From the UHGV virus genome UHGV-0869933: DNA of 40,885 nucleotides; one strand, 5' to 3'. Position 1 is the first letter of the stretch; every line of letters starts with the position of its first letter. This DNA is from a virus. The position numbers were made by a program, and so were the translations under genes. A model generated the notes under the pieces. It was given only the letters and a program-made list of their open reading frames with translations. It had not been told where the DNA came from and did no database searches. Shown one piece after another: positions 828 through 24,635 of this stretch.

Positions 828-1146
828 TAAACGTTTTCTTCACGCCTTTACACGGCCTGTCCTTCTCAAATCGCCATTTTGCCATCGCCTTTACAACCTG
901 CTCATCAAACAGATGGTGCGGCTCTGAACGAATAAACTCAATTCGGGTGACAGTACCATCAGCACCAATATCAAACCTCACATCAACCCGTCCCTTTATA
1001 TAATTTGCCGCTGCATAGGCCGGATATTGTGGTAATGCCTTAACCAACTGTCGGGGCATATCTGTTTTATGTTGCGTACAGCCCATAACCAGAGAAGACA
1101 ACAAAATAATTAACGGAAGATTTCTTTTCATTTTCATTCCCCGCAC
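805..1146 (-). CDS. Lipoprotein with TonB C-terminal-like domain, at the bor position downstream of Rz
   Basis: N-terminal signal with lipobox-like LVMGC; C-terminal region (YPAYAAANYIKGRVDVRFDIGADGTVTRIEF ... AMAKWRF) resembles TonB_C; start may be the GTG at 1146 or the ATG at 1137. Confidence 0.6.
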   Translation of the reverse strand: MRGMKMKRNLPLIILLSSLVMGCTQHKTDMPRQLVKALPQYPAYAAANYIKGRVDVRFDIGADGTVTRIEFIRSEPHHLFDEQVVKAMAKWRFEKDRPCKGVKKTFIFSPSAP

Positions 1147-4171: not shown

Positions 4172-6028
4172 TTATGATGATGCTGGTGCATTTATCTCCA
4201 GCACCAGACTTTCTATCTCAACGCCATACGCTGCATTTTTGGTAATATCCGTCAGCGTCAGCGCATTCAGCCCCAGTGTCAGACTGTCTTTTATGACCTG
4301 GAATGCCGGGCCAGCCACTCCATTCAGTTTCGGAGTAACCGTGGCACTGCCGGCGGTGAACACCAGTTCCAGCGTCTGCCAGTCGTTACTGTAATTCCCG
4401 AACTCGCCCAACTTTGTGTTTCCGGCTTTCTTGTGATGCATCAGATTCAGTTTGCCGTCTGTGGTCTGGGTGAAGAACGACATCAGGAACGGGTTACCAG
4501 TCCCGGTCATCGCCACGACGTCAGGTAACGCTACATCGGTATACAGATAAATTCCCAGACCGAACTGGTTGTTGGTCAGTGCGCCTGACAGTCGAAACTT
4601 ACAGCTCAGTCTGCCACCCCGTGTCAGCAGGGAGACTGCGTCATCCACCGGATGCATCAGGGACCAGGTTTTATTGCTCTGCTTGGTAACCTTAAACACA
4701 CCATCTTCCAGCGCAACACTGCCGCCGGTGATGGTCCAGCCCTGCGCAGCAGCCTCTCCGGCTGTCGGCAGCAGGGAGACTGTACGAACGGATGTGTCAC
4801 CATCAGACGGCCCCGATGGCGTGTCGCCGCCGGGCGAGGGTTTAATCTCCGGTGCGGTACCGCTGATGAAGGCGCTGGTTCGACCAACTGCGTTCAGAAT
4901 AGCGGTTGCCAGGCGATCCGAAATAATGCCCCTGCGCGCCCATGAACTGAAATGTGTCGGACGATTTGACGATACCCAATTACCATTACTACGGGATTGC
5001 GCGCCGTAATAACCTGCATCAGCAATATCCGGGTCTTCTGCCGGTAAGTTGGTGGGCGTGTTGTTGCCGTTACCGTCGGTCATGAACGGCACAAAGAAAA
5101 CGTTGTCGCTCTCCCTGTTTTTGTACGCGCCGTAGACGGAGTCATACTGTGTGCCGTATGTGTTTTTCCAGTAATACGTCGTGTCGCCACAAATCCACGG
5201 TACAACTGCAGCACTGCCGCCATGGCACTGCGCGTTAAATCCGGAAAGGTCAGTACGGAACTGCTTCAGCATGGCCGTGAACAGGTCCGGTTGCTGTGCG
5301 TAGGTGGCAGCGCTCATGTCAAATTCGCCCTGCATCCAGCACACCGCCAGCAACACATTTTTCGGGTTCTTCTGTAATGCCGCTTTGGTGCGTGCGATCA
5401 GGTCCTGATATAACGGTTTACCCACACCCCAGCGTGCCGAATCCTGGCTGGCCCCCGTGTCCGCACTGAATGTCCCCTCCGCGCCCTGGGTGAATGCCGA
5501 ACCACCACGACAGCATGGTACCAGCAGGATCCCCGCGTTATTCGGGATATACGGAAGCAGTTTTTTGGCAATATGTAAGCCCTGGCCGACACAGCCGTAC
5601 TGCCCTTTGCTCAGGTCTGCCTTCGGATGATTCAGTGCGCTCATATCCTGAACATCATGCAGGCAGTGGTCTGCCGGAATGATGTCGTTAAATGCGCATG
5701 CTTTACCACCGGGAGTCACTGTGTTGCGACGGGCCAGTTGCTTAATGCGTGGGTGGGGCGCATCGTAAGAATCCGGAAGCGGAAGCCCTTCACCGTAAGC
5801 CATGGCATTGGATTGCCCGGCCAGTACGATGACGTAGTACCACTCCGGCTCAGTTGCACCACTGACGACCACATCACCTTCTGCTGCAATCGCCTGCATC
5901 AGGGTATAAGGGGTTATGGCCACCGGACTACCAAACGGCTGCCAGCCCTCTTTCAGTTTATGTGTCAGCTTTTCCGCAAGATCTGACGGCGACGCCGCCC
6001 TGACAACATCATAGTGTTTAAATGCCAT
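4172..6028 (-). CDS. nanS: Prophage-type sialate O-acetylesterase NanS-p (DUF1737 + SGNH/SASA esterase + C-terminal domain)
   Basis: N-terminal MAFKHYDVVRAASPSDLAEKL (DUF1737-like), GQSNA esterase motif, about 620 aa; sits between the stx-equivalent locus and the holin, as in Stx and related lambdoid phages. Confidence 0.8.
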   Translation of the reverse strand: MAFKHYDVVRAASPSDLAEKLTHKLKEGWQPFGSPVAITPYTLMQAIAAEGDVVVSGATEPEWYYVIVLAGQSNAMAYGEGLPLPDSYDAPHPRIKQLARRNTVTPGGKACAFNDIIPADHCLHDVQDMSALNHPKADLSKGQYGCVGQGLHIAKKLLPYIPNNAGILLVPCCRGGSAFTQGAEGTFSADTGASQDSARWGVGKPLYQDLIARTKAALQKNPKNVLLAVCWMQGEFDMSAATYAQQPDLFTAMLKQFRTDLSGFNAQCHGGSAAVVPWICGDTTYYWKNTYGTQYDSVYGAYKNRESDNVFFVPFMTDGNGNNTPTNLPAEDPDIADAGYYGAQSRSNGNWVSSNRPTHFSSWARRGIISDRLATAILNAVGRTSAFISGTAPEIKPSPGGDTPSGPSDGDTSVRTVSLLPTAGEAAAQGWTITGGSVALEDGVFKVTKQSNKTWSLMHPVDDAVSLLTRGGRLSCKFRLSGALTNNQFGLGIYLYTDVALPDVVAMTGTGNPFLMSFFTQTTDGKLNLMHHKKAGNTKLGEFGNYSNDWQTLELVFTAGSATVTPKLNGVAGPAFQVIKDSLTLGLNALTLTDITKNAAYGVEIESLVLEINAPASS

Positions 6029-6288
6029 GGTTCTTTCCACCATCTGAAAAATGATTCTTTAAAATACCTGACATGTAATACAGAAAAAACACAAAACCAT
6101 ACCTTAAATAAAAACCTCATCATCAAGCAGATATGCATGGATAAACTACAAGACGAGATATAAACCACCCTGCATTTAAATAAACAATAAACAACATCAG
6201 AAAAATAATTCTGCTCTATGGTTTACAATCAAAAATATCATTTATACTTTTCAGAACATCACCAGCAAGGCATAAACAAGGAAACTAA

Positions 6289-7570: not shown

Positions 7571-7647
7571 TGGACCGCCATCGGGGACTTGAACCCCGCG
7601 CAGCCAGCTTCGAAGGCTGGCGCTCTATCCCGATGAGCTAATGGCGG
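7571..7647 (-). tRNA. tRNA-Arg (anticodon UCG)
   Basis: Hand-folded cloverleaf: 7-bp acceptor CCGCCAT/ATGGCGG, D-arm GCTC...GAGC, anticodon loop CTTCGAA, T-arm CGGGG-TTCAAGT-CCCCG, 3' CCA encoded. Confidence 0.8.
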
Positions 7648-7654
7648 TATGTGA

Positions 7655-7730
7655 TGGTGGCCCTTGCTGGATTTGAACCAGCGACCTGGCGATTATGAGT
7701 CGCTCGCTCTCACCACTGAGCTAAAGGGCC
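7655..7730 (-). tRNA. tRNA-Ile2/Met type (anticodon CAU), ileZ-like
   Basis: GGCCCTT-TA-GCTCAGTGGTGAGAGC-G-AGCGA-CTCATAA-TCGCC-AGGTC-GCTGG-TTCAAAT-CCAGC-AAGGGCC-A-CCA; resembles E. coli ileX and the phage ileZ. Confidence 0.8.
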
Positions 7731-7779: not shown

Positions 7780-8829
7780 TCAAACGATTAAATCCTGAAC
7801 TTCCCTGACTGTCTGCTCAAAACGTCCGGTCTCCAGTTCAACGCCAATCGCACGACGCCCGAGCGCCAGTGCAGCTTTTACCGTTGAACCTGAGCCCATA
7901 AAAAAATCTGCAACCAGGTCACCCGGACGACTGCTTGCGCTGATTATCTGCTGCAGCATTTCTGCCGGTTTTTCGCACGGATGTTTCCCGGGATAGAACT
8001 GCACCGGTTTATGTGTCCACACATCCGTGTACGGCACCTGCGCCGTCACACCAAAATACCGCCGCAGATGCTTATATTCACTCTGCAGCTCCACATACTG
8101 CCGGTTCAGTGACGTATACGTATCCACCAGCTGGTGGTGGGGCTTTTCCAGTTCACCGCGCTGATGTTTCTCTTCTGCCACCCGGGCAAACAGCGACTGT
8201 AATTTCAGATAATCGCTTTCGTTCGGTAGCTGCCACTGACTGGCACTGAACCAGTGCGACACCATGTTTTTCTTTCCTGTGGCATCTGCAATCTGTTTTG
8301 CCGTTATCCCCAGGGCCGCGCGCGCATCACGAAAGTAAGAAATCAGCGGGGCCATCACATGCTGTTTCAGTGCACTGCCCTTCGCCGCATACCCGGCATC
8401 TTTCGGACGATACGGCCCCTGATAATGTTCCGCGAACAGAATGCGCTCTGTGGCGGGGAAATACGCCCGCAGGCTTTCCTTGTTGCATCCGTTCCAGCGT
8501 CCGGACGGCTTCGCCCAGATAATATGGTTCAGCACACTGAAGCGTTCACGCATCATGATTTCGATATCAGATGCCAGGCGATGACCACAGAACAGGTAAA
8601 GACTTCCGACAGGTTTCAGCACCCGCCAGAACTGCGCCAGACACTGGTCCAGCCACTTCAGGTAATCATCGTCGCCCTTCCACTGGTTATCCCATCCCTC
8701 AGTCTTCACTTTAAAGTACGGCGGGTCCGTGACTATCAGGTCAACAGAATTTTCGGGTAACGACCGGATAAATTCCAGGCAGTCGGCGTTGATTAACTCA
8801 CAACTGGATATTTTTACAGTATTAAGCAT
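7780..8829 (-). CDS. Orphan DNA methyltransferase (beta-class amino-methyltransferase, N6-adenine or N4-cytosine)
   Basis: 349 aa; DPPY (motif IV) near the N-terminus and FFMGSGST (motif I) near the C-terminus; no restriction endonuclease partner nearby; sits between Q and the tRNAs as in Stx2-type phages. Confidence 0.8.
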   Translation of the reverse strand: MLNTVKISSCELINADCLEFIRSLPENSVDLIVTDPPYFKVKTEGWDNQWKGDDDYLKWLDQCLAQFWRVLKPVGSLYLFCGHRLASDIEIMMRERFSVLNHIIWAKPSGRWNGCNKESLRAYFPATERILFAEHYQGPYRPKDAGYAAKGSALKQHVMAPLISYFRDARAALGITAKQIADATGKKNMVSHWFSASQWQLPNESDYLKLQSLFARVAEEKHQRGELEKPHHQLVDTYTSLNRQYVELQSEYKHLRRYFGVTAQVPYTDVWTHKPVQFYPGKHPCEKPAEMLQQIISASSRPGDLVADFFMGSGSTVKAALALGRRAIGVELETGRFEQTVREVQDLIV

Positions 8830-9403: not shown

Positions 9404-10225
9404 CTATCGCGTTACCCTCTTTAACTGCCGCTCCGCCCATGCCTCTTCAATGTCAAACCGAACCACCAACGTATCGTAAAAGCGTTTCACTGATTTTTTC
9501 CACGTATCAAGCGTGATAGCACTCGTCACTTTGCATATGGCATTAAATGCCTCCGTTGATGGCAGCCTTTCACAGCCACGACCACCACAACGCTGGCAAT
9601 CTCTGATAACAGGCATACCACGTTTTACCGACTCTTCACGATGAATGGCGACACCACGCCCACGGCAATCCTTACAGGCGGTGGAAACCTCACCCTTTCC
9701 GCCACACTCCGGACAGGCAACTTTTACCACCTCCCTGACTTTTTTCCATTCTTCCCAGTAAGACGGATACACGCCTTTTGTGCACTTTGCCCACACTGGT
9801 GGCTTACCATCCGGATACTGGATCTTGTTTGTAAAAACCTCGCTTTCAATAAATTTTTTTCCGTGACAGCAGGGGCACTGTTTTTTGCTCGCCGCGCTAC
9901 GGGCATAATCTTCAAACGCATACGAAGCCATAATGCGCATCACTACCGGTTTTATTTCTGCCGGAAGTTTTCTCAACGCCGCCACACGATCGCACCGACT
10001 GAGTGCATAATCTGCCAGTAATTCTGTTGCCCGCGCCCTGTCATTCATACTGATGCCCATTTTCCCCAGGAACGCAGAAAACCCCATCTCAGCCCGATTC
10101 TGTGTCATGCCCTGCGCGGCCATCACATCAGTGATACTCAGCGCATCTTTTGACGTTGAGGCCGATGCATCGGTCAGGCCAGGGGATTTTGGGGAGTAGT
10201 ATTTCGGTAAATCTTCCAGTTTCAT
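9404..10225 (-). CDS. Q: Late antiterminator Q-like protein (zinc-binding)
   Basis: 273 aa with several CxxC pairs; sits between rusA and pR' exactly where lambdoid Q genes lie; family assignment is from context and motifs. Confidence 0.6.
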   Translation of the reverse strand: MKLEDLPKYYSPKSPGLTDASASTSKDALSITDVMAAQGMTQNRAEMGFSAFLGKMGISMNDRARATELLADYALSRCDRVAALRKLPAEIKPVVMRIMASYAFEDYARSAASKKQCPCCHGKKFIESEVFTNKIQYPDGKPPVWAKCTKGVYPSYWEEWKKVREVVKVACPECGGKGEVSTACKDCRGRGVAIHREESVKRGMPVIRDCQRCGGRGCERLPSTEAFNAICKVTSAITLDTWKKSVKRFYDTLVVRFDIEEAWAERQLKRVTR

Positions 10226-12367: not shown

Positions 12368-12844
12368 TTACATATAAAAATCGAACGACATCTGTTGTGT
12401 TCTCACGCCAATTGTTTCCAGTACGATATCCGCAAATGTATCTGCCTGCCATTCTGCATCCTCAATACGAGTAGGTTCTTTAACTGAAAAGTGTAAAACT
12501 GCTTTGTGTCCAAGAAGCAAATGACCTAGCTCGTGGAAGATAACAGCAAGTGCATGCTCTTCCCCAAGGCAAGCATTCACATATATTTTATTGGGAACCG
12601 TAATTGTTAGAGAAGCGGGGTCACAATGTCCGATAGTTAGATCATACGTCAGAGCCTCCCACTCTTTGTCGGTCCTGACGTCAAGAGTAACCCCATAAAT
12701 TGACAGGCTTTCAAAGAACATATCATAACGCTTTCTTTTGCGCTTTGAGGCTGTAAGACCAATAGCATTACAGAAGTTTATAGCTCTGTAGGCTATTTCT
12801 TCTTCTTGCATCGGTGACACCCTGTTACCTCTCATTTGATACAT
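12368..12844 (-). CDS. ImmA/IrrE-family (COG2856-like) zinc metallopeptidase
   Basis: HEXXH in FHELGHLLLGH; about 150 aa; 2 nt downstream of the XRE-HTH gene; alternative start codons in the first 12 codons. Confidence 0.65.
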   Translation of the reverse strand: MYQMRGNRVSPMQEEEIAYRAINFCNAIGLTASKRKRKRYDMFFESLSIYGVTLDVRTDKEWEALTYDLTIGHCDPASLTITVPNKIYVNACLGEEHALAVIFHELGHLLLGHKAVLHFSVKEPTRIEDAEWQADTFADIVLETIGVRTQQMSFDFYM

Positions 12845-12846
12845 AA

Positions 12847-13206
12847 TTACCCCTCATTGTTATTAATCTTTTGCAATAAATCTGCAAAACTCTTTAGCTG
12901 TTCCGGCGTAAACTGCGACTTAGCGAATCCCGCTACAAGCATTTTCTGTTGCTGAGACAAACCGTTTACTGGAACTGAGTCATTCGCAACTGCCGCTAAC
13001 TCCTGTAACCCTTCAATTTCTACACCTTTGGCCTTGAAGTAAGAATCAATCTTCTTAACCCACTTCAGAGGTATTTTTTTGCTACCAGTTTCTAAACCGC
13101 TAAGAAACGCTGGCGTAGTGCCCAGTTCTTGAGACATAGTCAGAAGAGTACTGTCAGTATCGATCCTCGCTTTTCTAACGGCCTTACCGAATTCAGTGAG
13201 TGCCAT
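12847..13206 (-). CDS. XRE-family helix-turn-helix transcriptional regulator
   Basis: 119 aa; N-terminal HTH (TLLTMSQELGTTPAFLSGLETG); own promoter-like region with CTTGC-N5-GCAAG inverted repeat upstream. Confidence 0.65.
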   Translation of the reverse strand: MALTEFGKAVRKARIDTDSTLLTMSQELGTTPAFLSGLETGSKKIPLKWVKKIDSYFKAKGVEIEGLQELAAVANDSVPVNGLSQQQKMLVAGFAKSQFTPEQLKSFADLLQKINNNEG

Positions 13207-13449: not shown

Positions 13450-13605
13450 TTACTCCTCAGGTTCGTAAGCTGTGAAGACAGCGACCTCCGTCTGGCCGGT
13501 TCGGATTCGTACCTCGCAGAGGTCTTTCCTCGTTACCAGTGCCGTCACAATGACGGTTAAACAGATGACGATCAGGGCGATTAGCATCGCCTTTTGCTGC
13601 TTCAT
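13450..13605 (-). CDS. hokD: Hok/Gef-family type I toxin (HokD/RelF-like)
   Basis: MKQQKAMLIALIVICLTVIVTALVTRKDLCEVRIRTGQTEVAVFTAYEPEE matches the Qin HokD (RelF) sequence as I recall it; the track ORF carries a mok-like upstream extension. Confidence 0.85.
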   Translation of the reverse strand: MKQQKAMLIALIVICLTVIVTALVTRKDLCEVRIRTGQTEVAVFTAYEPEE

Positions 13606-13886
13606 AGCCTGCTTCTCCTTGCCTTTCGGCACGTAAGAGGCTAACCTACGTGTGTAGAGCATAGATATGGCCTCAGATTAATGTTAAGCGTCTTGCCGGA
13701 CGCGTAATGTTAACTGGGGCTTTTCTCTATCTGCCTTTTGGTGTTCATGCCTGAGACAGATAGCCTCAAGCACCCGCTGCAATTCTACTTAACTCTCCTT
13801 TTCCCGCAAACCGTTTTTATCCCCAGCGGCAAATCGAATACACCACCAGCGCCACCGCCATCGCAATTCCTACCGTTGTTAATGCT

Positions 13887-14240
13887 TCAGGCCAGGTCAT
13901 CGTAAATATCCTCCACGCTTATCAGTCCGTTCCGCTCCAGATAACTCATCGCCTTATCCGGTAATTTGCAGTCTGGCTTCGCTTTCCTCAGTTGCCAGGT
14001 TAACTGCTTTACCAGCATGGTTAACTCATCGACCAGACGCTGATATCCCACTGGTTTGTATTCATGCAATTTACCGGCTGGCTCTGCTGCCAGCGATACC
14101 AGTGCGATTTCCAGAACAGCAATATCCATCTTATATGTGCGGATGATGTCATGGTCGATTGTGCCCGGTATGCACAGTCTCTGTGCTTCAATAGTCTCCT
14201 CTGCGTGAGCTATTAACTGCTCTCTGGTAAAAGTCGTCAT
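13887..14240 (-). CDS. Hypothetical nin-region protein (MTTFT N-terminal family)
   Basis: 117 aa; N-terminus [15 protein letters not shown] paralogous to 14680-15120 and 14244-14405; ATGA coupling to the upstream gene. Confidence 0.5.
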
Positions 14241-14243
14241 GCC

Positions 14244-14405
14244 GTAGCCCCTTCTTGATATTTTTCAAACCAGAACACAACCGGCTCTGCTTCCAGCGAT
14301 GCCAGCGCAATCCGTGCCAGTTCCATTTGTTCACCACGGGTAAGCCCGTTTTCAAGCGGATTTTTAATGAACAATTCAATACGTTCTTTGGTAATAGTGG
14401 TCATG
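14244..14405 (-). CDS. Hypothetical small protein (53 aa, MTTITKE)
   Basis: My translation: [55 protein letters not shown]; shares the ALASLEAE motif; below the track cut-off. Confidence 0.4.
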
Positions 14406-14414
14406 TGTTACTCC

Positions 14415-14678
14415 TTAACCCGCAGTGCTTTCAACTGATGAGGGGAACAAAATCTTTTCATCAAACCCTGCATTCATATCATGGACAGCAACACACCAAT
14501 CCATCGACGAACGATTATCAAGAGCCTCCATGATTTCATCCATGCGGCGCAGGTCATACAGGTAAATGCTTTTATCGCCAATGGTGTAAAAACCAATTTT
14601 TTTCGGTGATGGGCAGCGATCAAGAACGTCCTGTAATTCGTTCAACCATGCCCGTTCTTTTTTTGTTAAAGTTGCCAT
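14415..14678 (-). CDS. Hypothetical protein (87 aa)
   Basis: Internal ATG with strong AAGGAGAG RBS; stop/start arrangement TGAtATG with the upstream gene. Confidence 0.5.
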   Translation of the reverse strand: MATLTKKERAWLNELQDVLDRCPSPKKIGFYTIGDKSIYLYDLRRMDEIMEALDNRSSMDWCVAVHDMNAGFDEKILFPSSVESTAG

Positions 14679-14679
14679 A

Positions 14680-15120
14680 TCACTCTCCTTTCCCATGAAG
14701 CATAGCGGCGCGGCAGGCGTTCCATATTTCGGCAGCAATATCGCGCTCGCTATCGGTTAATTTGTACGTGGAAACATAGCCAGAGAGCATTTCTACGTTT
14801 TCCGGAGTTGCTTCTTCCGGCACTACCGGCGCTGGCAAGGCAGCGTGATAGTAGAGTGGCATAGTTTTGTACAGTGGTTCGCCAGGACTTCCGTCAACCT
14901 GATTCCATTCTTCAACCCAGGCATCAACAACCGCTTTGCTGGTTGATACATGTTCTTCTGAATCTACATTTTGTCCTGATATACAGAACATAACTGCCTC
15001 TGCTTCCAGCGATGCCAGAGCAATTTCATAAGCACGGCGCTCAATATTGTCTCGAACGTCCAAGCTGCCTATGCGCTCTTTGATTTCTTTAATCAGTTCT
15101 TTGTCGGTAAAAGTGGTCAT
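14680..15120 (-). CDS. Hypothetical protein (MTTFT family, 146 aa)
   Basis: Starts MTTFTDKELIKEIKERIGSLD; AAGGAGA RBS; shares the ASLEAEA motif. Confidence 0.5.
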   Translation of the reverse strand: MTTFTDKELIKEIKERIGSLDVRDNIERRAYEIALASLEAEAVMFCISGQNVDSEEHVSTSKAVVDAWVEEWNQVDGSPGEPLYKTMPLYYHAALPAPVVPEEATPENVEMLSGYVSTYKLTDSERDIAAEIWNACRAAMLHGKGE

Positions 15121-15121
15121 A

Positions 15122-15481
15122 TCAATCTCCTTTGGTACCAATGTTTACAGCCTGGCAAGCCTCTTTGAGCACCCAGTCAACAGCGTCTTTCCATGCTCCG
15201 GTTTCGACTGGCGGATTCTCACGCTTTACCTGTTCATAGAAACGCACTGCTTTAATCAATCCTTCTGGTGTCAGTGGCACAGGCGGGACAGTGAATAAGG
15301 CCTGAATCTCATAGCTCGGCCTGTCGTTGCAATCCTCTTTTGTCGGGACATATTTCCAGTCACCAACCCACTGCTTCCCCTGAAAGTCTGTAACGCCTTT
15401 TTTCACGTAGCGATATCGCCATGCCACTGGTTTTGCCTGCCCTGCCTTTTCATGCCCTTCCTGATAATTAATCTCGCTCAT
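15122..15481 (-). CDS. Hypothetical protein (MSEINYQ N-terminal family)
   Basis: 119 aa; ATGA overlap with the upstream small ORF. Confidence 0.5.
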   Translation of the reverse strand: MSEINYQEGHEKAGQAKPVAWRYRYVKKGVTDFQGKQWVGDWKYVPTKEDCNDRPSYEIQALFTVPPVPLTPEGLIKAVRFYEQVKRENPPVETGAWKDAVDWVLKEACQAVNIGTKGD

Positions 15482-15654
15482 TCATCGCCCCACTCATCAC
15501 AATATGCTTCGACCGGTGTTTTCCCTGCTTCATAATCATCACGCCATGCTTCAGCATCAGCGGCACTTCCACCGCGTAACTCTGCATAATCCATTAACAG
15601 TTCATGCCATTCTTCAAAACTGGCGTTATATTTAGTTGAACCAAAATCAGCCAT
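15478..15654 (-). CDS. Hypothetical small acidic protein (58 aa)
   Basis: My translation: MADFGSTKYNASFEEWHELLMDYAELRGGSAADAEAWRDDYEAGKTPVEAYCDEWGDE; below the track cut-off. Confidence 0.35.
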   Translation of the reverse strand: MADFGSTKYNASFEEWHELLMDYAELRGGSAADAEAWRDDYEAGKTPVEAYCDEWGDE

Positions 15655-15829
15655 TTTGTTCTTCCTCTTCGTCTTTTATTTCGTGGTATGAGTAATTGCA
15701 GTAGTTAAAGAAAATATCTTTAGCTTCATCCTGTATTTCATCTGGTGTTGCATCATCATCCACTTCGAATTCATCCTCGAAATCTCCACCGGCTATTCCC
15801 GTTTCAATAATTATTTTGAATTTTCGCAT
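15647..15829 (-). CDS. Hypothetical small acidic protein (60 aa)
   Basis: Track ORF, very acidic, packed within the operon. Confidence 0.4.
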   Translation of the reverse strand: MRKFKIIIETGIAGGDFEDEFEVDDDATPDEIQDEAKDIFFNYCNYSYHEIKDEEEEQNG

Positions 15830-15922
15830 TTCACTACCGCCCTTTCGGACGGCCTCCTGATGTTCTGAGGGTGCAGGAATCCCTCCGGTTAAGGATTAAA
15901 TTTTTAACAGAGCTAAATTTAA

Positions 15923-16279
15923 TTATTCAGTTCTGGATTTTGTCGCCCTGCGTATCCGCGCTTTCGCGTTACGCTCAATCTGAATTAGCTTTTCTATATT
16001 TTTTCGCCTTTCCCGCTCCTCCTGACGCAAGAGCCTTACATCATCTGCCAGTCTGGTTTCTCTTTTCGCCACAGAGAGCATCCAGTCAAATGGCTCCACA
16101 ACTGCACCGCAGATTTTACAGCGGACCTGACGCTCTTTTTCGTCAACCCGGACAGAGGCGTGATGACAATATGGTCTTTCCGATGGCTCATAAAGAAAAT
16201 TAACCTGATTACGAGGGTCATCCTCTTTTACCGGAAATAAAACGATATTGCTTAACTCATCCTCTGGTTTTATTTCCAT
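15923..16279 (-). CDS. Hypothetical zinc-ribbon-like protein (about 118 aa)
   Basis: Internal ATG (MEIKPEDELS) with GGAGAGGAG RBS; C-x2-C pair RCKICG. Confidence 0.45.
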   Translation of the reverse strand: MEIKPEDELSNIVLFPVKEDDPRNQVNFLYEPSERPYCHHASVRVDEKERQVRCKICGAVVEPFDWMLSVAKRETRLADDVRLLRQEERERRKNIEKLIQIERNAKARIRRATKSRTE

Positions 16280-16766
16280 GCTCCTCTCCTTTGATGCGAA
16301 TGCCTGTTGCAATGCTGTTTATGATGCTGTCAGTGCATGGGGTAGAAAGCTGGGCATCTCCAGCAATTTTCATGACCTCAACATCTGCATATCGAATACC
16401 GAGGTGTATCAGACCGGCTATGCCTGACTTAAGCCGAGCATTTTCCATAAATAGAACTTTTGCCCGCTGTTTTTCTGCTTCAAGCTCAACGCGCAGCTTC
16501 CCTACCGTTAGCGCAATATCCTCGTTCTCCTGATCGCGGCTTTTGATGTATTGCAGGTTTCTTTCCCGTTCATCCAGCAGTGCCAGCACGGTTTCTGGTC
16601 CGGTCAGAAATTTGAAGGCGTTGAGCGCATCAATATCCACACCGTAATCTTTAAGTTCCTGTTCACTTAACAAGTCATCATCAGCTGGCAACATTAACAG
16701 GCGTTCCATTGCTGGAATTGCACGTTCCGCCACCTCACGCAGTGCCTGGTAATTAATTTCGCTCAC
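16257..16766 (-). CDS. Hypothetical protein (MSEINYQ family, GTG start)
   Basis: 169 aa; GTG start with AAGGAGG RBS at 6 nt spacing. Confidence 0.5.
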   Translation of the reverse strand: MSEINYQALREVAERAIPAMERLLMLPADDDLLSEQELKDYGVDIDALNAFKFLTGPETVLALLDERERNLQYIKSRDQENEDIALTVGKLRVELEAEKQRAKVLFMENARLKSGIAGLIHLGIRYADVEVMKIAGDAQLSTPCTDSIINSIATGIRIKGEEHGNKTRG

Positions 16767-17269
16767 TGGTTGCCTCCTTTGCGAAGCTGGGCAGCAAAGT
16801 CAACTAACCACTCAGTCATTTCAACCTTCCCTACCAGGTCTGAACCAGGGTACATACAGCAATCACTCTGCGCCGCTTTGAAATCCTTATACTCATATTC
16901 TTGGGCCACCAGATTTTTTGCAGCTTCTATAGCAGCATCCACCCCCTGCGCCCGGACTTCAGCCAGGAAAGCATCAGTGGTTGGTGTTTCAGGTATCTGT
17001 CTCCTCATCCGTTCTATTGCATGATTGAACCCGAAGTCTTCCGCGAGAGATACGTCATCCATATTGTCATTGTCATCTTCAATATCCCGTGATTCTGGAA
17101 TTGCAGACTTTATTCCCGCATTCTCCGCTGCCAGCGCCGCGCACTTGGCCTCAAGAGCGGCAACCACTTCCTGATGGTCTTTGTACTTAACGTATGAGCC
17201 GGAGATGTCATCACCTTCGGTGTTTAGCCATGCGTCATTGCAATTCACTGCGTAGGTTCTGATGCTCAT
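16763..17269 (-). CDS. Hypothetical acidic protein (about 168 aa)
   Basis: Likely start MSIRTYAVNCNDAW directly after the stop of the 61-aa ORF. Confidence 0.45.
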   Translation of the reverse strand: MSIRTYAVNCNDAWLNTEGDDISGSYVKYKDHQEVVAALEAKCAALAAENAGIKSAIPESRDIEDDNDNMDDVSLAEDFGFNHAIERMRRQIPETPTTDAFLAEVRAQGVDAAIEAAKNLVAQEYEYKDFKAAQSDCCMYPGSDLVGKVEMTEWLVDFAAQLRKGGNQ

Positions 17270-17451
17270 GTTGATGCTCTCCCGCCCCTGACAGACGCCA
17301 GGCCAGTCAATAAAGTATCCGCACAATGCCTACCCTCAGACGTGCGCGCAGGATAAATGCCGTTATGACCCGGCAAAATATATGCTACCCATTCATCTTG
17401 CGTTGCCTGTTCCGCCGCCTCGCGCAGTTCTTGATAGTTAATTTTGCTCAC
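17266..17451 (-). CDS. Short ORF with MSKINYQ-family N-terminus, possibly a gene remnant
   Basis: First about 21 aa (MSKINYQELREAAEQATQDEW) are paralogous to the MSEINYQ genes; the remaining 40 aa are low-complexity and unlike the paralogs; GTG start with GGAGG RBS. Confidence 0.3.
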   Translation of the reverse strand: MSKINYQELREAAEQATQDEWVAYILPGHNGIYPARTSEGRHCADTLLTGLASVRGGRAST

Positions 17452-17704
17452 TGGTTGCCTCCGCTTCCCACGTTTTCAGACTTTCACCACAGAACGGGCA
17501 AAATGAAACCCGAACTGGTGATTTAGAAAATTCACCGGAACGCAACATCACAAAATCAGGACCGCGAGTTAAACTCTCATTCCAGATTTTGTATATCAGC
17601 AGACCTTTTCGCATCGTGTATTCAGCATCATGCTCAAGGGACTTTGCCAGTGCTGCACATGGTTCTATCTTGTTGCCATTAACCTGGCATTTTGATTCAC
17701 TCAC
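17438..17704 (-). CDS. Hypothetical zinc-ribbon protein (88 aa)
   Basis: GTG start overlapping the upstream stop (GTGA) with GAGGAGG RBS; C-terminal CPFCGE. Confidence 0.45.
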   Translation of the reverse strand: MSESKCQVNGNKIEPCAALAKSLEHDAEYTMRKGLLIYKIWNESLTRGPDFVMLRSGEFSKSPVRVSFCPFCGESLKTWEAEATSEQN

Positions 17705-18123
17705 CGCACCACCTCCTCAAAATTCCCCTGATAAAACGCCAGTACGCGCTGCATAACTTCGCTCTTCCGGCACTCGCGACAGATTATGTTCTGACGCCTG
17801 TCGTAGCGACGTATTTCTCCGTCAGGTAATAGCCAGATAAGGTCCGGATCAACCACAGATGGTTTCTTCAGCTTTGCCCTTGAGAGTTTTTTGCGGGCGT
17901 TTTGCCAGTCCTTGCGCGCCTGCTCAGACGGGAATACTCCGTAACCGGAATTGTAAACATCACCACTGGCGGCCAACTCCATGCATAAACGACCGACAGA
18001 CGTATGACTGACACCAATTTCATCCGATAACTGCCGAATCGTGCCTCGTCCGTTAAGGCGTACGAATTCCACGATCAGCCCTTTAATTTTTTCCCGCTCT
18101 TCTTGTGTAAAAACTTTTGCCAC
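17701..18123 (-). CDS. Hypothetical HTH-containing protein downstream of the replication initiator
   Basis: 140 aa; GTIRQLSDEIGVSHTSVGRL resembles a helix-turn-helix; occupies the slot after the O-like gene; function not established. Confidence 0.4.
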   Translation of the reverse strand: MAKVFTQEEREKIKGLIVEFVRLNGRGTIRQLSDEIGVSHTSVGRLCMELAASGDVYNSGYGVFPSEQARKDWQNARKKLSRAKLKKPSVVDPDLIWLLPDGEIRRYDRRQNIICRECRKSEVMQRVLAFYQGNFEEVVR

Positions 18124-18163: not shown

Positions 18164-19141
18164 TTACCCCCTGAAGCCCGGCGGAATTTCAGTGTCCGGT
18201 TCAGAAATGTGATTCACGCAACGCTGCGCAGGCGAACGCCCCAGGCGGATAACCAGTTCATCCCATTTTTCCCGGAGTTTTGCCGGACTCATGATGTTTT
18301 TTACCCAGAACGAATCCCGCTGGAGACGCCCAAACATTTCACAAATTTGTCTGTGAGTTCTGCCATCCAGCATCCGCATTGTGCGAACGTCATTGGCCCA
18401 TGCTGTCCAGTTGGGTTCTTTCGGTCTAGTGATCTCGCCATCATCGCTGGCCGCCTGCTCGTAAAGACTCACGATTCGTCCCCAGATCCACTGTGCGCAC
18501 ACCAAATCTTCCTGACTTCCCCACTGGCGTTTTTTCGCACTGAACACAACCGCGTCAGGGTGTCGGGTTAAAAAATCCTGTTCAGCCGTCTGCGGGTCCG
18601 GTTGCGAAGCGTCCGGACAAGAAGATCTTTTATCTGACGGATCAGGTTTTAATACTGACGGATCGGGGTCAATCATCGGCCCCCTAATCGGCAGTTTTTT
18701 ATCAACAGTTGATCCATCAAAATTTGACGGGTCAACCGTTGAGGGGTCAATATTTGACGGGTCAACTGTTAACGGGTCATTTTTTGCCGGGCTAATTTTT
18801 CTTTTCGGTTTATATGACTCACGCGCCGCCGCCGCAGCTGCTTCGAGTTTTTCCACATTAAGCCGATAGATATTGCTTACATTACGCCCACCGACCTTAC
18901 GCTCTTCCTTCGTCAGCCAGCCCTCTTTCGCCAGTTCTGCAATAGCCGATTTCACTGTGGATTCACTTCTTGCACCGATCTGACGCCGGATAGTTTCAAT
19001 GGCAGGCCATGACACGCCCTCGTCATTGCTGTAGTCTGCAAGACGGGCCATAACCGCCACCCTGGATAAGATCATGCCGGTGAAGGCGCACCCTTCCCAG
19101 ACAAGACCATGAAGCTTGCTGCTCATAAAACCCCCGAACAC
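18164..19141 (-). CDS. Replication initiation protein (O-like) with ori iterons inside the gene
   Basis: 325 aa with an N-terminal winged-HTH-like region; the middle of the gene encodes the repeated peptide DPSNIDPSTVDPSNFDGSTVD, the footprint of DNA iterons. Confidence 0.6.
   Translation of the reverse strand: MFGGFMSSKLHGLVWEGCAFTGMILSRVAVMARLADYSNDEGVSWPAIETIRRQIGARSESTVKSAIAELAKEGWLTKEERKVGGRNVSNIYRLNVEKLEAAAAAARESYKPKRKISPAKNDPLTVDPSNIDPSTVDPSNFDGSTVDKKLPIRGPMIDPDPSVLKPDPSDKRSSCPDASQPDPQTAEQDFLTRHPDAVVFSAKKRQWGSQEDLVCAQWIWGRIVSLYEQAASDDGEITRPKEPNWTAWANDVRTMRMLDGRTHRQICEMFGRLQRDSFWVKNIMSPAKLREKWDELVIRLGRSPAQRCVNHISEPDTEIPPGFRG
18700..18815. repeat. Replication origin-like iterons plus adjacent AT-rich stretch
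   Basis: Three to four imperfect about 20-bp repeats, each with the palindrome TCAAC-N-GTTGA (for example TTGACGGGTCAAC), followed by an AT-rich segment; same layout as ori-lambda inside O. Confidence 0.6.
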
Positions 19142-22193: not shown

Positions 22194-24635
22194 ATGAGCA
22201 CTGATAAAGAAGAATTTGCACTATATTGCGAAGCAAAAAATGACAAAGTAAGAAAACGCCTGGGAATTAAAGGTGGTTTTTACTGGACTACAGCAAAAAA
22301 ATTATCTGTTGCAATCTCCCGCTGCATTACCGCAATGGATGACAACGATTATGATGAAGACGACTTTAAAAAACCCGTCCGCGTCAATTTGCCCGTTGTT
22401 GACGACCTTCCGCCAGAAGGCGTGTTTGATACTGAATTCTGCAACCGCTATGAAAAAGGCGGGAAAGATGGCATCACAATGACATTTATCGGCCCTTCCC
22501 CCTCTGTTCAGGACAAACCAGCCAGCACTGACAATACCAACATCAACGGCGAAGACATGACTGAGATTGAGGAGAGCATGCTTCTGCCTGTCTCCGGTCA
22601 GGAACTGCCCATTCGTTGGCTTGCTCAACACGGCAGCGAAAAACCAGTAACGCACGTTTCACGCGACGAACTCCAGGCATTACACATTGCACGGGCTGAA
22701 GAACTACCGGCTGTTACTGCCCTGGCTATTTCGCATAAAACCAGTCTGCTCGACTCGCTGGAGATTCGCGACCTCCACAAACTGGTTCGTGACACTGACA
22801 AAGTTTTCCCTAATCCTGGTAATTCAGACCTGGGACTAATAACTGCTTTTTTCGAAGCATACCTGGACGCTGACTACACTGATCGGGGTCTGCTGACAAA
22901 AGAGTGGATGAAAGGAAATCGTGTTTCACGCATCACCCGCACGGCTTCCGGTGCTAATGCTGGCGGTGGGAACAAAACCGATCGCAATCCGAATTTAGTA
23001 CACACCCTCGACACACTGGATGTGGAGATTGCAGCAGCCACACTTCCGATGGATTTTAATATTTATGAAATTCCGGGCAGCGTTTATCGTCGCGCAAAAG
23101 AAGTAGTCCTGAACAAAGAAAGTCCGTTCAAAGAATGGTCCGCAGCACTTCGTGCAACCCCGGGTATTCTGGACTATTCCCGCGCCGCTATTTTTGCACT
23201 TATCCGAAGCGCACACCCTGAATTTTATCACTACCCGGGACGCCTTCAGGGGTATATCAACGCCTATTTGACGGAAACTGATCACGAGAACCCCAGCAAG
23301 GAAACTCTCACAGCTGCCCGGCATACGCCGGAAAAAGATATCCTGGAAGAAATTAACCGCGAGGTGGTTACTGAGCGTGAAACAGAAGAAGAAAAACCAC
23401 AACCATCTGACGCAATGGCAGGTGAACAGGCAACAACTGAAACAATGGAACCGGATACAACTGAACATGGCCAGAACGCGCAGTCGCTGGATGCTCAGTC
23501 GCAGGTGAGTTCCGCTAACCAAGTAAAAGTCACCGCTGACGAAGTAAACAAAATTATGCAGGCAGCCAATATCAGCCAGCCTGACGCCGATAAGTTACTT
23601 GCTGTATCGCGTGGTGAATTTGTTGAGGGGATTAGCGACCCTAATGATCCGAAATGGGTCAAGGGGATCCAGACTCGCGATTCTGTGAACCAGAACCAGC
23701 ATGAATCGGAACGGAACGACCAAAAAGCGGAACAAAACAGCCCAAATGCGTTACAAAACGAGCCAGAAACGAAACAATCCGAACCAGTAGCGCAACAGGA
23801 ACCGGAAAAAGTCAGCACCGCCTGCGGTCAGAGCGGTGGCGGCAACTGCCCTGATTGTGGCGCGGTGATGGGCGACGCAACATACCAGGAAACATTCGAT
23901 GAAGAGAATCAGGTTGAAGTTCAGGAAAATGATCCGGAGAAAATGGAAGGCGCTGAACATCCACACAAGGAGAACACTGGCGGCAATCAGCATCACGATA
24001 GCGATAATGAAACTGGCGAGACGGCAGATCACTCAATTAAGGTGAACGGTCATCAAGAAATCACATCCACCAGCAGGACGTGTGACCATCTAATGATCGA
24101 CCTTGAAACCATGGGAAAAAATCCTGATGCCCCGATCATCTCAATAGGTGCAATATTTTTCGATCCGCAAACCGGAGATGTGGGACCGGAATTTAGTAAG
24201 ACTATCGATCTGGAAACTGCTGGCGGAGTCATTGATCGGGACACCATTAAATGGTGGCTTAAGCAATCACGCGAAGCGCAATCTGCCATTATGACCGATG
24301 AAATCCCGTTAGATGATGCACTGTTACAATTGCGGGAATTTATCGACGAAAACTCCGGTGAATTTTTTGTTCAGGTCTGGGGAAATGGAGCCAACTTCGA
24401 CAACACGATTTTGCGCCGTTCATACGAACGGCAGGGGATCACCTGCCCGTGGCGTTACTACAACGATCGCGATGTACGCACAATCGTTGAGCTGGGGAAA
24501 GCCATAGACTTCGATGCCAGAACGGCTATTCCATTCGAAGGTGAGCGCCATAATGCACTTGATGACGCCCGTTACCAGGCAAAATACGTTTCAGTTATCT
24601 GGCAAAAACTGATCCCGAGTCAGGCTGATTTTTAA
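22194..24635 (+). CDS. Large putative exonuclease with C-terminal DEDDh (DnaQ-like) 3'-5' exonuclease domain
   Basis: 813 aa; C-terminal IDLETMG ... [12 protein letters not shown] ... [13 protein letters not shown] matches DEDD exonuclease motifs; long acidic, low-complexity middle; K-12 has only a fragment (ydfE) here. Confidence 0.65.

What the first reader, a model, noticed from the sequence alone, without database searches (positions are those of the whole stretch)
13887..17704. Operon of about twelve small nin-region genes built from interchangeable N-terminal modules
Several genes share near-identical N-termini (MSEINYQ/MSKINYQ with ALRE.AE; MTTFT/MTTITKE with ASLEAE) fused to unrelated C-termini. 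Starts are often GTG with strong AAGGAGG sites, and neighbours are coupled by ATGA, GTGA or TGAtATG junctions. One member (17266-17451) keeps the conserved 21-residue N-terminus and then runs into unrelated low-complexity sequence, as expected for a recombination scar. The conserved 5' ends look like homology linkers for modular exchange.
Basis: seen in the sequence. Interest (0 to 1): 0.45.

Follow-up and report, generated by a model that had tools for sequence, protein, structure and literature searches.

The report
Mosaic Ea22-type phage accessory gene cluster
A run of small early genes in a lambda-like E. coli phage is built from gene segments shuffled between phages at short conserved DNA boxes, which is a known kind of phage mosaicism; the supposed recombination scar is a 2-base frameshift that splits one Ea22 gene.

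Summary
The region holds 12 tightly packed minus-strand ORFs (11 genes) between the replication genes and Q of a Rac/lambda-like temperate coliphage.

- **Shared N-termini:** they are real and far beyond chance. MSxINYQ-ALRE is the N-terminus of Pfam Ead_Ea22; 16257-16766 is a lambda Ea22 homologue. MTTxT...[10 protein letters not shown] begins a second, unnamed family that recombines with Ea22 and DUF551 proteins.
- **The "scar":** 17266-17451 is not a recombination scar. A TG insertion at 17322-17325 splits one 228-aa Ea22 gene into two ORFs. 73% of related alleles are intact.
- **Breakpoints:** across 385 related viral loci they cluster about 3-fold at the shared blocks and gene starts. They also cluster at internal conserved linkers.
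- **Shuffling at the linker:** across [10 protein letters not shown], 11 N-segment types pair with 29 downstream types in 65 combinations.
- **DNA-level conservation:** the linkers are conserved even at synonymous sites, and the K-G-E gene ends are the next gene's ribosome-binding site.

The linker idea is therefore partly supported, but it is an old concept and Ea22 mosaicism is already published. This is a well-documented example, not a new kind of system. What these proteins do remains unknown.

The parts
17438..17704 (-). G2, 88-aa gene with a GTG start, overlapping the stop of the upstream DUF977/Ren-like gene by GTGA. Its 3' end carries the Ea22-type boundary box in a different reading frame from the one used in G4.
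   Evidence: (phrog_4030, E 1e-40)
17266..17451 (-). G3, the 5' fragment (61-aa ORF) of a split Ead/Ea22 gene. Codons 1-43 are native; the last 18 are out of frame.
   Evidence: Pfam PF13935 positions 1-45, 48.7 bits; alignment to the intact 687-nt allele
17322..17325 (-). TGTG where intact alleles have TG. This 2-bp insertion causes the frameshift.
   Evidence: alignment columns 127-128. In the IMG/VR loci the insertion allele occurs 25 times and the intact allele 68 times.
16763..17326 (-). G4, the 3' part of the same Ead/Ea22 gene. The reading frame is open from 17326. An internal ATG at 17269 overlaps the G3 stop as ATGA, so re-initiation could give a 168-aa product.
   Evidence: Pfam PF13935 positions 38-138 and 48-138
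16257..16766 (-). G5, a full Ead/Ea22-like gene with a GTG start and a homologue of lambda Ea22. It has the same N-terminus, the same LLDERERN..LTVGKLRVELE core and GIRIKGE, but a different insert and C-terminal domain.
   Evidence: PF13935, 108.6 bits, E 4.8e-31; 53% identity to lambda Ea22
16747..16777 (-). Ea22-type gene-boundary box (SD GGAGG, stop of the upstream gene, GTG start and first codons). The second copy is at 17432-17462.
   Evidence: (D1). The box is found with 23 distinct upstream contexts in related loci. Junction hot spots lie at 16761-16800 and 17461-17480.
17432..17462 (-). Second copy of the Ea22-type gene-boundary box, ahead of G3.
15923..16279 (-). G6, a 118-aa zinc-ribbon-like protein. 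Its SD is the AAAGGAGAG that encodes K-G-E of G5 (16284-16292).
   Evidence: (phrog_1621). 22 junction types end at 16281-16300.
15647..15829 (-). G7, a DUF7167 protein, preceded by the only sizeable intergenic gap (93 nt).
15478..15654 (-). G8, a 58-aa protein (phrog_519).
15122..15481 (-). G9, a chimeric gene. It has 7 Ea22 start codons (MSEINYQ), then a family-B type middle segment (..AKPVAW..), the linker PPVPLTPE, and the segment GLIKAVRFYEQ.. that also occurs behind other linkers. It ends in KGD, which forms the SD for G10.
   Evidence: (B20, B68)
14680..15120 (-). G10, a full family-B protein: seg1, then L1 [10 protein letters not shown] (14995-15024), seg2, then L2 PAPVVPEE (14812-14835), seg3, then L3 WNACRAAML (14698-14724), ending in GKGE.
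   Evidence: Homology-end clusters lie at all three linkers.
14415..14678 (-). G11, an 87-aa protein (phrog_1714). It shares only the SD/stop/start box with G10 (38 nt, 82% identical).
   Evidence: (D6)
14237..14404 (-). G12, a 55-aa family-B protein: seg1 type '[16 protein letters not shown]..', then L1 (14271-14311) and a short tail.
   Evidence: D2; B1
13887..14240 (-). G13, a 117-aa family-B relative with a diverged linker ([10 protein letters not shown], 14080-14102). It is a stable unit with few junctions.
   Evidence: (B0)

Best explanation
**What it is.** This is the accessory-gene stretch of the early-right operon of a Rac/lambda-like temperate coliphage. It lies between the O-like replication gene plus a DUF977 gene and hok, RusA and Q. 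It holds 11 small, translationally coupled genes.

**Gene content.** Five genes belong to one recombining network:
- Two are Ead/Ea22 genes: G5, and G3+G4, which a TG insertion has split.
- Three are members of an unnamed MTTxT family: G10, G12 and G13.
- G9 is a chimera of the two families.

**How the genes are built.** Their proteins are strings of variable segments separated by short boxes that are conserved at the DNA level. The boxes are:
- a gene-boundary box that contains the last codons of the upstream gene, the Shine-Dalgarno sequence, the stop and the start (AAAGGAGAGTGAtATG, or GGAGGCAACCAGTGAGC);
- the intragenic linkers [27 protein letters not shown] and PETVLALLDE.

**How it most likely works.** Shown here: segments on either side of these boxes occur in many combinations in related phages, and homology between genomes starts and stops at the boxes. 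Inferred: the boxes are the crossover points of homologous or homeologous recombination between co-resident lambdoid phages and prophages. Phage Rad52-like or RecET-type recombinases, which accept short and diverged homology, probably catalyse it.

**Likely function (by analogy only).** Extrapolating from lambda and Stx-phage Ea22, the products are early accessory proteins with a helical or coiled-coil N-terminal part and exchangeable C-terminal domains. They would modulate the lysis-lysogeny decision or host physiology.
For: **Context**
- O-like gene, DUF977, hok/sok, DUF968, RusA, Q, cro/YdaS, YdaT and int are all identified.

**Family assignment**
- Pfam PF13935 matches G5, and matches G3+G4 in complementary halves. 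G5 is 53% identical to lambda Ea22.

**Frameshift**
- An intact 687-nt, 228-aa allele is annotated as one ead/Ea22 CDS in E. coli 15A.

**Mosaicism**
- No phage record covers 80% or more of the region. The pieces occur in Rac-like phages, in Stx phages next to int, and on P1-like plasmids.

**Breakpoints**
- Homology ends are enriched 2.8-3.0x at the shared blocks and gene starts.
- Clusters also lie at L1, L2 and L3 of G10 and at PETVLALLDE of G5.

**Combinatorics**
- 11 x 29 segment types give 65 combinations and 116 four-gamete quartets.
- An independent protein database shows the same block swaps, with invariant residues only in the linkers.
- Explicit chimeras exist whose two homologies overlap exactly in the 42-nt L1.

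**DNA-level conservation**
- Ala is GCA in 92-93% of cases at two L1 core codons, against 45% at the adjacent Ala codon.
- Leu is CTT in 40 of 41 cases in L3, and Val is GTA in 30 of 34 cases in L2.
- The Gly codon in all 107 KGE/KGD boxes is GGA.
- The Ea22 boundary box is read in two different frames by its upstream genes, G2 and G4.

**Literature**
- ea22 genes are mosaic, with a common N-terminus and coiled coil and unrelated C-terminal domains (PMC10834534, PMC7093339).
- Red, Rad52-like and RecET recombinases recombine short, diverged sequences and generate phage mosaics (PMC3945230, PMC2327257).
Against: - About 45% of junction types lie outside the pre-defined blocks. Many of these sit at other conserved motifs recognised only afterwards.
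- BLAST ends are an indirect proxy for crossovers, and they tend to stop at the far edge of any conserved block.
- The loci were sampled by homology to only five of the genes, so G2, G6-G8 and G11 are seen only as flanks.
- No recombinase was identified with confidence in this window. The 813-aa protein has only the exonuclease VIII N-terminal region plus an Rv2179c-like exonuclease domain.
- Expression, operon status and protein function were not tested. The structure model of G10 was unusable, with pLDDT 48.
Confidence: 0.8

Rival explanations
1. Ordinary paralogy. The shared N-termini would be a conserved functional domain, the C-termini would have diverged in place beyond recognition, and recombination at the blocks would play no part.
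For: Within the window the similarity is modest at the protein level: 33-40% over 41-54 aa for G10, G12 and G13. Lambda Ea22's N-terminal and coiled-coil part is thought to mediate oligomerisation (PMC10834534), so protein-level selection on it is plausible.
Against: - The same segments recur at 85-100% identity in many different combinations.
- Transitions go from about 90-98% identity to no alignment, and they happen at the boxes.
- The linkers keep rare synonymous codons while the neighbouring conserved residues vary freely.
Confidence: 0.05
2. Random illegitimate recombination followed by selection (the Hendrix-type model). Joins would occur anywhere, and only those at gene or domain boundaries would survive. 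The conserved boxes would then be by-products with other functions, namely SD, start context, translational coupling and interdomain linkers.
For: The gene-boundary boxes clearly carry translational signals: AAGGAG or GGAGG, with overlapping stop and start. Roughly half of the junction types are not in the pre-defined blocks. Some joins look non-homologous, for example G9, which has 7 Ea22 codons fused to a family-B middle segment.
Against: - Identical boxes of 16-45 nt flank dozens of unrelated contexts: 78 contexts for AAAGGAGAGTGATATG and 23 upstream classes for the Ea22 box.
- The intragenic linkers have no translational role, yet they are conserved at synonymous sites.
- In chimeras, the two parental homologies overlap within the linker.
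- Experiments show that phage mosaics form mainly by homologous recombination (PMC3945230).
Confidence: 0.15
3. One reading: a recombination scar in which a conserved N-terminal module was joined to unrelated sequence.
For: The ORF does end in 18 residues with no homologues, and a 60-aa PHROG family (phrog_14804) of such ORFs exists.
Against: - The window differs from an intact 228-aa gene by one extra TG and is otherwise about 99% identical over 689 nt.
- Pfam positions 1-45 and 48-138 lie in the two consecutive ORFs.
- RefSeq annotates sister alleles as a single CDS or as a 'frameshifted' one.
Confidence: 0.01

Closest known systems
Lambda Ea22 and the mosaic Ea22 variants of Stx phages (Pfam PF13935 / IPR025153 Ead_Ea22)
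   Same: - G5 has the MSEIN.QALRE start on a GTG codon, the LLDERERN.QYIK.RDQENEDIALTVGKLRVELE core and the GIRIKGE motif of lambda Ea22.
- G3+G4 is a second family member.
- The published architecture is a shared N-terminus and coiled coil, unrelated C-terminal domains and a common (K/R)GE end (PMC10834534, PMC7093339). That is what is seen here.
   Different: - The genes sit in the early-right operon between the replication genes and Q, not in the exo-xis region of the early-left operon.
- G5's C-terminal domain differs from that of lambda, and G5 reads 8 codons past KGE.
- One copy is split by a frameshift.
- Pro-lysogenic activity and tetramer formation were not tested.
DUF551 (PF04448) proteins of lambdoid prophages, such as Ea22 variant V2 and YfdS-like proteins
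   Same: Relatives 98-99% identical to G10 over most of its length carry a DUF551 tail after the WNACRAAML linker. Other relatives carry an Ead_Ea22 N-terminus. G10 is therefore part of the same recombining network.
   Different: G10, G12, G13 and G9 themselves have no DUF551 and no Pfam match at all. After L3, G10 ends directly in GKGE.
Modular or 'linker' exchange in lambdoid phages: Botstein's modular theory, the conserved boundary sequences described for HK620 and nin regions (Clark et al. 2001, as cited in PMC2327257), and relaxed homologous recombination by Rad52-like recombinases (PMC3945230)
   Same: Short conserved sequences flank the exchangeable units, and junctions concentrate at gene boundaries. 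Exchange takes place between phages, defective prophages and plasmid prophages.
   Different: Here the conserved boxes also lie inside genes, with three or four linkers per protein. The exchangeable unit is therefore a 25-75-aa protein segment rather than a whole gene. The role of any particular recombinase is inferred, not shown.
Cassette systems of antigenic variation, in which conserved sequences flank variable mini-cassettes, for example Neisseria pilE/pilS. This is an analogy from general knowledge only.
   Same: Variable coding segments are bounded by short conserved DNA that supports recombination.
   Different: There is no donor/expression-locus arrangement and no evidence of programmed, within-lineage switching. 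Exchange here occurs between genomes at the population level. This cluster is not a member of that class.

Membership tests
Ead/Ea22-like family (Pfam PF13935) | Match to the PF13935 profile above its gathering score (27 bits) | tested here: met
   G5 scores 108.6 bits over profile positions 1-139. G3 scores 48.7 bits (positions 1-45) and G4 43-47 bits (positions 38/48-138), so together they make one gene.
Ead/Ea22-like family (Pfam PF13935) | The same match for the other genes with shared N-termini (G9, G10, G12, G13), some of which are labelled 'Ea22' or 'EaA' in phage records | tested here: not met
   No Pfam family matches at E<=0.01-0.05. G9 shares only 7 residues. These genes are linked to Ea22 only through chimeric relatives.
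Lambda Ea22 (exo-xis region protein) | Architecture of short N-terminus, central coiled-coil core, variable C-terminal domain and (K/R)GE motif | tested here: met
   In the alignment of G5 with lambda Ea22, the N-terminus and the 35-aa core are nearly identical, GIRIKGE is present and the C-terminal domain is unrelated. The architecture is as described in PMC10834534 and PMC7093339.
Lambda Ea22 (exo-xis region protein) | Location between exo and xis in the pL operon | tested here: not met
   Here the genes lie downstream of the O-like and DUF977 genes and upstream of hok, RusA and Q on the pR side. Related copies in other genomes do lie next to xis/int.
Lambda Ea22 (exo-xis region protein) | Pro-lysogenic activity and tetrameric state | not testable with these tools
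   Known only from experiments on lambda and Stx phages (PMC7093339, PMC10834534).
Lambda nin region | Position between the replication genes and the antiterminator Q in the pR operon | tested here: met
   O-like gene at 18164-19141, Q (PF03589) at 9404-10225, all on the same strand.
Lambda nin region | Homologues of the lambda nin genes (NinB/Orf, NinG/Rap and others) within 13887-17704 | tested here: not met
   The Pfam scan of all ORFs in the interval finds only Ead_Ea22, DUF7167 and a weak zinc-ribbon match. RusA and DUF968 lie further downstream.
DUF551 (PF04448) proteins | Presence of the DUF551 domain | tested here: not met
   No hit in G9-G13. The domain is present only in longer relatives of G10.
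Single operon with translational coupling | Same strand, overlapping or abutting stop and start codons, no internal terminator | tested here: met
   Nine of the 11 junctions overlap or have a 1-nt spacer. Terminator-like and promoter-like sites are no more frequent than in shuffles. Transcription itself was not tested.
Programmed ribosomal frameshift (considered for G3/G4) | The frameshift is required in all alleles and occurs at a conserved slippery site | tested here: not met
   68 of 93 related alleles are in frame, lacking the extra TG. Other E. coli alleles carry different indels, with match lengths of 685, 686 and 688 nt.

The most novel reading that the evidence does not exclude
The conserved boxes may not be just relics. 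They may be kept at the nucleotide level as crossover sites, which would make the Ea22 / MTTxT / DUF551 network a population-level system for combinatorial diversification of early phage accessory proteins, with segments of 25-75 aa as the exchange units.

A corollary concerns the C-terminal '+GE' motif of Ea22 proteins, whose significance the literature calls unknown (PMC7093339). It would not be a protein motif. It would be the Shine-Dalgarno and junction box AAAGGAGAG of the next gene. Lambda itself retains it as a relic (AAAGGAGAGTGAGATcgg) with no downstream ORF.
Probability: 0.3. Interest if true: 0.5.

Novelty: new member of a known kind. Interest (0 to 1): 0.3.

Why it matters
The cluster is a clean, quantifiable example of how temperate phages assemble new small proteins from shared parts.

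- Exchange happens below the level of the gene, at 16-45-nt boxes that double as translational signals or interdomain linkers.
- This gives a simple nucleotide-level explanation for a protein motif (the K/R-G-E end of Ea22) that published work left unexplained.
- It shows that 'ead/Ea22-like', 'DUF551' and many 'hypothetical' prophage proteins of E. coli are one recombining network. That matters for annotation and for clustering-based phage protein families: one protein here hits up to 13 PHROGs.
- It does not reveal a new kind of system. The biological role of these proteins is still unknown.

Tried and rejected
- **Recombination scar at 17266-17451:** rejected. It is a 2-bp insertion.
- **Programmed frameshift:** rejected. 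73% of alleles are in frame, and other alleles carry different indels.
- **Structure of G10:** AlphaFold2 with a 32-sequence alignment gave pLDDT 48 and pTM 0.32. The model was unusable, so no fold search was run.
- **Solved structures:** sequence search against the PDB with G5, the intact G3/G4 protein, G10 and G13 found nothing below E = 0.1.
- **NCBIfam:** no informative model. The only hit was a sub-threshold HTH match in G1.
- **PADLOC defence models:** no hits.
- **Promoter and terminator scan:** counts equal to shuffles, so it is uninformative about internal signals.
- **Exact-linker scan of one genome per species:** only E. coli, Shigella and three MAG contigs matched, so it gave no information on breadth.
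- **Chi site:** I looked for one in the linker core (GCTGGAAG against Chi GCTGGTGG). There are three mismatches, so I did not pursue it.

Full report
**Anatomy.** Every gene of the finding lies on the minus strand. Downstream of an O-like replication gene (18164-19141) and a DUF977/Ren-like gene (17701-18123) come twelve ORFs:

| Name | Coordinates | Notes |
|---|---|---|
| G2 | 17438-17704 | |
| G3 | 17266-17451 | |
| G4 | 16763-17326 | internal ATG at 17269 |
| G5 | 16257-16766 | |
| G6 | 15923-16279 | |
| G7 | 15647-15829 | |
| G8 | 15478-15654 | |
| G9 | 15122-15481 | |
| G10 | 14680-15120 | |
| G11 | 14415-14678 | |
| G12 | 14237-14404 | |
| G13 | 13887-14240 | |

After these come hok/sok, an HTH plus ImmA-like pair, DUF968, RusA and Q. 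The stretch is therefore the positional equivalent of the lambda nin region in a Rac/lambda-like temperate coliphage. It contains no nin gene homologue. The gene order in the whole window is tail genes, int, the immunity region, replication, Q and lysis. That is the vegetative, attP-joined order.

**Checking the observation.** The shared N-termini are real.
- G3 and G5 are 75% identical over residues 1-16 and 85% identical over 60 nt.
- A 31-nt box covering the SD, the upstream stop, the GTG start and the first codons occurs twice in the window and never in 100 shuffles.
- G9 shares only MSEINYQ.
- G10, G12 and G13 are similar only over their first 41-54 residues. The conserved islands are MTT(F/I)T and IAL(A/V)SL(E/A)AE.
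- The 23-nt linker core occurs three times, against zero in shuffles.
- The coupling junctions (GTGA, ATGA, TGAtATG) are as described.

Three points were overstated. Only three of the twelve starts are GTG. Six ORFs share no N-terminal protein module with another ORF. The description of the 61-aa ORF is wrong in its details.

**The supposed scar.** Pfam Ead_Ea22 (PF13935) matches G3 over profile positions 1-45 and G4 over positions 38/48-138. The two ORFs are therefore halves of one gene. In E. coli O111:H21 strain 15A the same sequence is a single 687-nt CDS, annotated as an ead/Ea22-like family protein of 228 aa. The window differs from it by one extra TG (TGTG at 17322-17325) and a few substitutions.

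The first 43 codons of G3 are native, and only the last 18 are out of frame. The shifted frame happens to stop on an internal Met codon (ATGA at 17266-17269), so re-initiation of a 168-aa product is possible. That is an inference.

Among related viral loci the insertion allele occurs 25 times and the intact allele 68 times. Other E. coli genomes carry other indels in this gene. This rules out a programmed frameshift.

**What the families are.** G5 matches PF13935 over its full length (108.6 bits) and is 53% identical to lambda Ea22. It has the same GTG-MSEIN.QALRE start, a nearly identical 35-residue core and GIRIKGE, but a different C-terminal domain. G9, G10, G12 and G13 have no Pfam, NCBIfam, PADLOC or PDB match. 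Each of them does hit several PHROGs over different sub-ranges, which is the signature of mosaic proteins.

G10 has 2,641 relatives in a 5.8-billion-protein database. Some carry a DUF551 tail, others an Ead_Ea22 N-terminus, and a few carry both.

**Testing the linker idea.** I fetched 385 related loci from IMG/VR, using five of the proteins as queries. I then ran blastn with the window region against them, keeping matches of at least 100 nt and at least 88% identity. Each homology end was recorded together with the foreign sequence beyond it.
- The 330 distinct junction types inside 13887-17704 are strongly clustered.
- 43% fall in the within-window repeat blocks, which make up 15.5% of the length (2.8-fold).
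- 38% fall within -20 to +25 nt of gene starts, 12.7% of the length (3.0-fold).
- After coarse de-duplication to 220 classes the enrichments are 3.0- and 2.9-fold.

The remaining hot spots show that the picture is broader than N-terminal modules. They lie at:
- PETVLALLDE of G5 (nt ~175, 22 types) and G5 nt ~295 (16 types);
- the K-G-E codons of G5 just ahead of G6 (22 types);
- G4 nt ~280;
- the three internal linkers of G10: L1 14992-15025, L2 14812-14846 and L3 14696-14724.

G9's start and G13's blocks are not hot spots.

**Combinatorial structure.** I collected 174 distinct family-B proteins from the loci with an HMM of the N-terminal region. They show this plan:
1. seg1, 30-75 aa;
2. the linker [10 protein letters not shown];
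3. seg2, about 35-55 aa;
4. the linker (A)PPAPVVPEE;
5. seg3, about 20-30 aa;
6. the linker GWNACRAAML;
7. either GKGE-stop or a long tail ending in DUF551.

Across the first linker, 11 seg1 types pair with 29 seg2 types in 65 combinations, giving 116 four-gamete quartets. An alignment of database relatives shows the same block swaps, with invariant residues only in the linkers. Chimeras can be read directly. One gene matches G12 over its nt 31-164 and G10 over nt 123-471, and the two homologies overlap exactly in the 42-nt linker. Hybrids that join an Ea22 N-terminus to family-B segments also exist (B68; P0010).

**Conservation is at the DNA level.**
- In the L1 core (CTG GCA TCG CTG GAA GCA), the two Ala codons are GCA in 92-93% of 125 distinct contexts. 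The adjacent conserved Ala codon is split GCA/GCG/GCT at 45/28/27%.
- L3 uses Leu CTT in 40 of 41 cases, and L2 uses Val GTA in 30 of 34.
- The Ea22 boundary box GGAGGCAACCAGTGAGC is read as ..GGNQ* by G4 but in another frame by G2. It follows 23 unrelated upstream contexts.
- The box AAAGGAGAGTGAtATG occurs in 78 distinct contexts, and its Gly codon is GGA in all 107 KGE/KGD boxes.
- The K-G-E codons are the AAGGAG Shine-Dalgarno sequence of the next gene (G5/G6, G9/G10 and G10/G11).

A published study noted that all Ea22 proteins end in (K/R)GE and called the significance unknown (PMC7093339). The simplest reading of the data here is that this end is a nucleotide-level SD and junction box. 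Lambda ea22 itself ends AAAGGAGAGTGAGATcgg, which is the box without a downstream start.

**Mechanism.**
- *Shown:* reassortment of segments, homology ends at conserved boxes, and DNA-level conservation of those boxes.
- *Inferred:* the boxes serve as crossover sites for homologous or homeologous recombination between co-resident phages, prophages and P1-like plasmids. The same cassettes occur in all three, and in both early operons.
- *Published support:* lambda acquires prophage DNA by homologous recombination driven mainly by Red-beta and other Rad52-like recombinases on short, diverged homologies. Exchanges of about 100 bp within genes are frequent (PMC3945230). RecET can use very short homologies, and conserved flanking sequences had already been invoked for lambdoid module exchange (PMC2327257, citing Clark et al. 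2001).
- *Function:* the role of the proteins is extrapolated only. Lambda and Stx Ea22 favour lysogeny and are tetramers with a coiled coil and variable C-terminal domains (PMC7093339, PMC10834534).

**Rivals.** In-place divergence of paralogues is contradicted by the four-gamete result and by the synonymous-site pattern. Random illegitimate joining followed by selection cannot be excluded for some junctions; G9's 7-codon Ea22 head looks like one. It does not explain identical boxes in dozens of contexts, nor parental homologies that overlap inside a linker.

**Limits.**
- BLAST ends are a proxy for crossovers.
- The loci were sampled through five genes.
- No recombinase was securely identified in the window.
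- The AlphaFold model of G10 was unusable.
- Expression was not tested, and the promoter/terminator scan was uninformative.

**Verdict.** The scar interpretation is refuted. Ea22 mosaicism with a shared N-terminus and swapped C-terminal domains is already published, and the linker concept is decades old. This is a well-resolved new example of a known kind. It adds two modest new points: the multi-linker architecture of the MTTxT family, and the SD explanation of the Ea22 KGE end.

Noticed in passing
window 13450-13775: A hok/sok type I toxin-antitoxin locus lies directly downstream of the cluster. Evidence: Pfam HOK_GEF at E 2.9e-23, and Rfam sok RF01794 at 117 bits.
   Followed up: partly
window 13817-13900 (-): A 27-aa strongly hydrophobic ORF ([27 protein letters not shown]) overlaps the end of G13 by 14 nt. 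It is annotated as a hypothetical protein in phage ON470583. It has no PHROG hit and only a sub-threshold Pfam match (DUF883_C, E 0.029). It could be a small membrane peptide.
   Followed up: partly
window 12368-13206 (-): An XRE-type HTH protein is followed by an M78/ImmA-IrrE-like metallopeptidase. This repressor/anti-repressor-like pair sits in the nin-equivalent region.
   Followed up: partly
window 22194-24635 (+): An 813-aa early-left protein joins an exonuclease VIII N-terminal region (PF06630) to a C-terminal Rv2179c-like 3'-5' exoribonuclease domain (PF16473, E 1e-67). The canonical RecE nuclease domain is absent, and I did not look for a RecT-like partner.
   Followed up: no
window 31226-34698 (-): The lambda J-like tip attachment protein is encoded as two abutting ORFs of 789 aa and 368 aa that overlap by 4 nt. 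The receptor-binding C-terminal domain is in the second ORF.
   Followed up: no
window 26675-27127 (-): A 150-aa protein between the tail fibre genes and int matches the Rhodococcus equi virulence-associated protein family (PF05526, E 5e-34).
   Followed up: no
window 7571-7730 (-) and 7780-8829 (-): tRNA-Arg(TCG) and tRNA-Met genes lie next to a DNA methylase downstream of Q. Further on there is a DUF1737/SASA (NanS-like) esterase at 4172-6043.
   Followed up: no
whole window: The gene order is tail, then int, immunity, replication, Q and lysis. This is the vegetative (attP-joined) lambda order, so the window looks like a phage genome or an excised form rather than an integrated prophage with host flanks.
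   Followed up: partly
L386 (lambda J02459) 1040-1060, minus strand: Lambda ea22 ends in the same junction box as the genes here (AAAGGAGAGTGAGAT). It is followed by cgg instead of an ATG, and no coupled downstream ORF is present. This looks like a relic of a module boundary.
   Followed up: partly
E. coli genomes matched; L004 4001-4686: The 228-aa Ea22 gene carries several different indels in different complete genomes, with match lengths of 685, 686, 688 and 689 nt against 687 for the intact gene. This suggests repeated independent inactivation.
   Followed up: partly
L387, L388 (Segatella copri MAG), L390 (Desulfovibrio MAG): The exact 23-nt coliphage linker occurs on contigs binned into non-enterobacterial MAGs. 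These are probably mis-binned coliphage or prophage contigs.
   Followed up: no
window 14996-15013 and homologous loci: The 18-nt core of linker L1 (CTGGCATCGCTGGAAGCA) is nearly invariant at synonymous sites, while the conserved codons next to it vary freely. I cannot tell whether this reflects only repeated crossover (shared ancestry) or direct selection on the DNA.
   Followed up: partly
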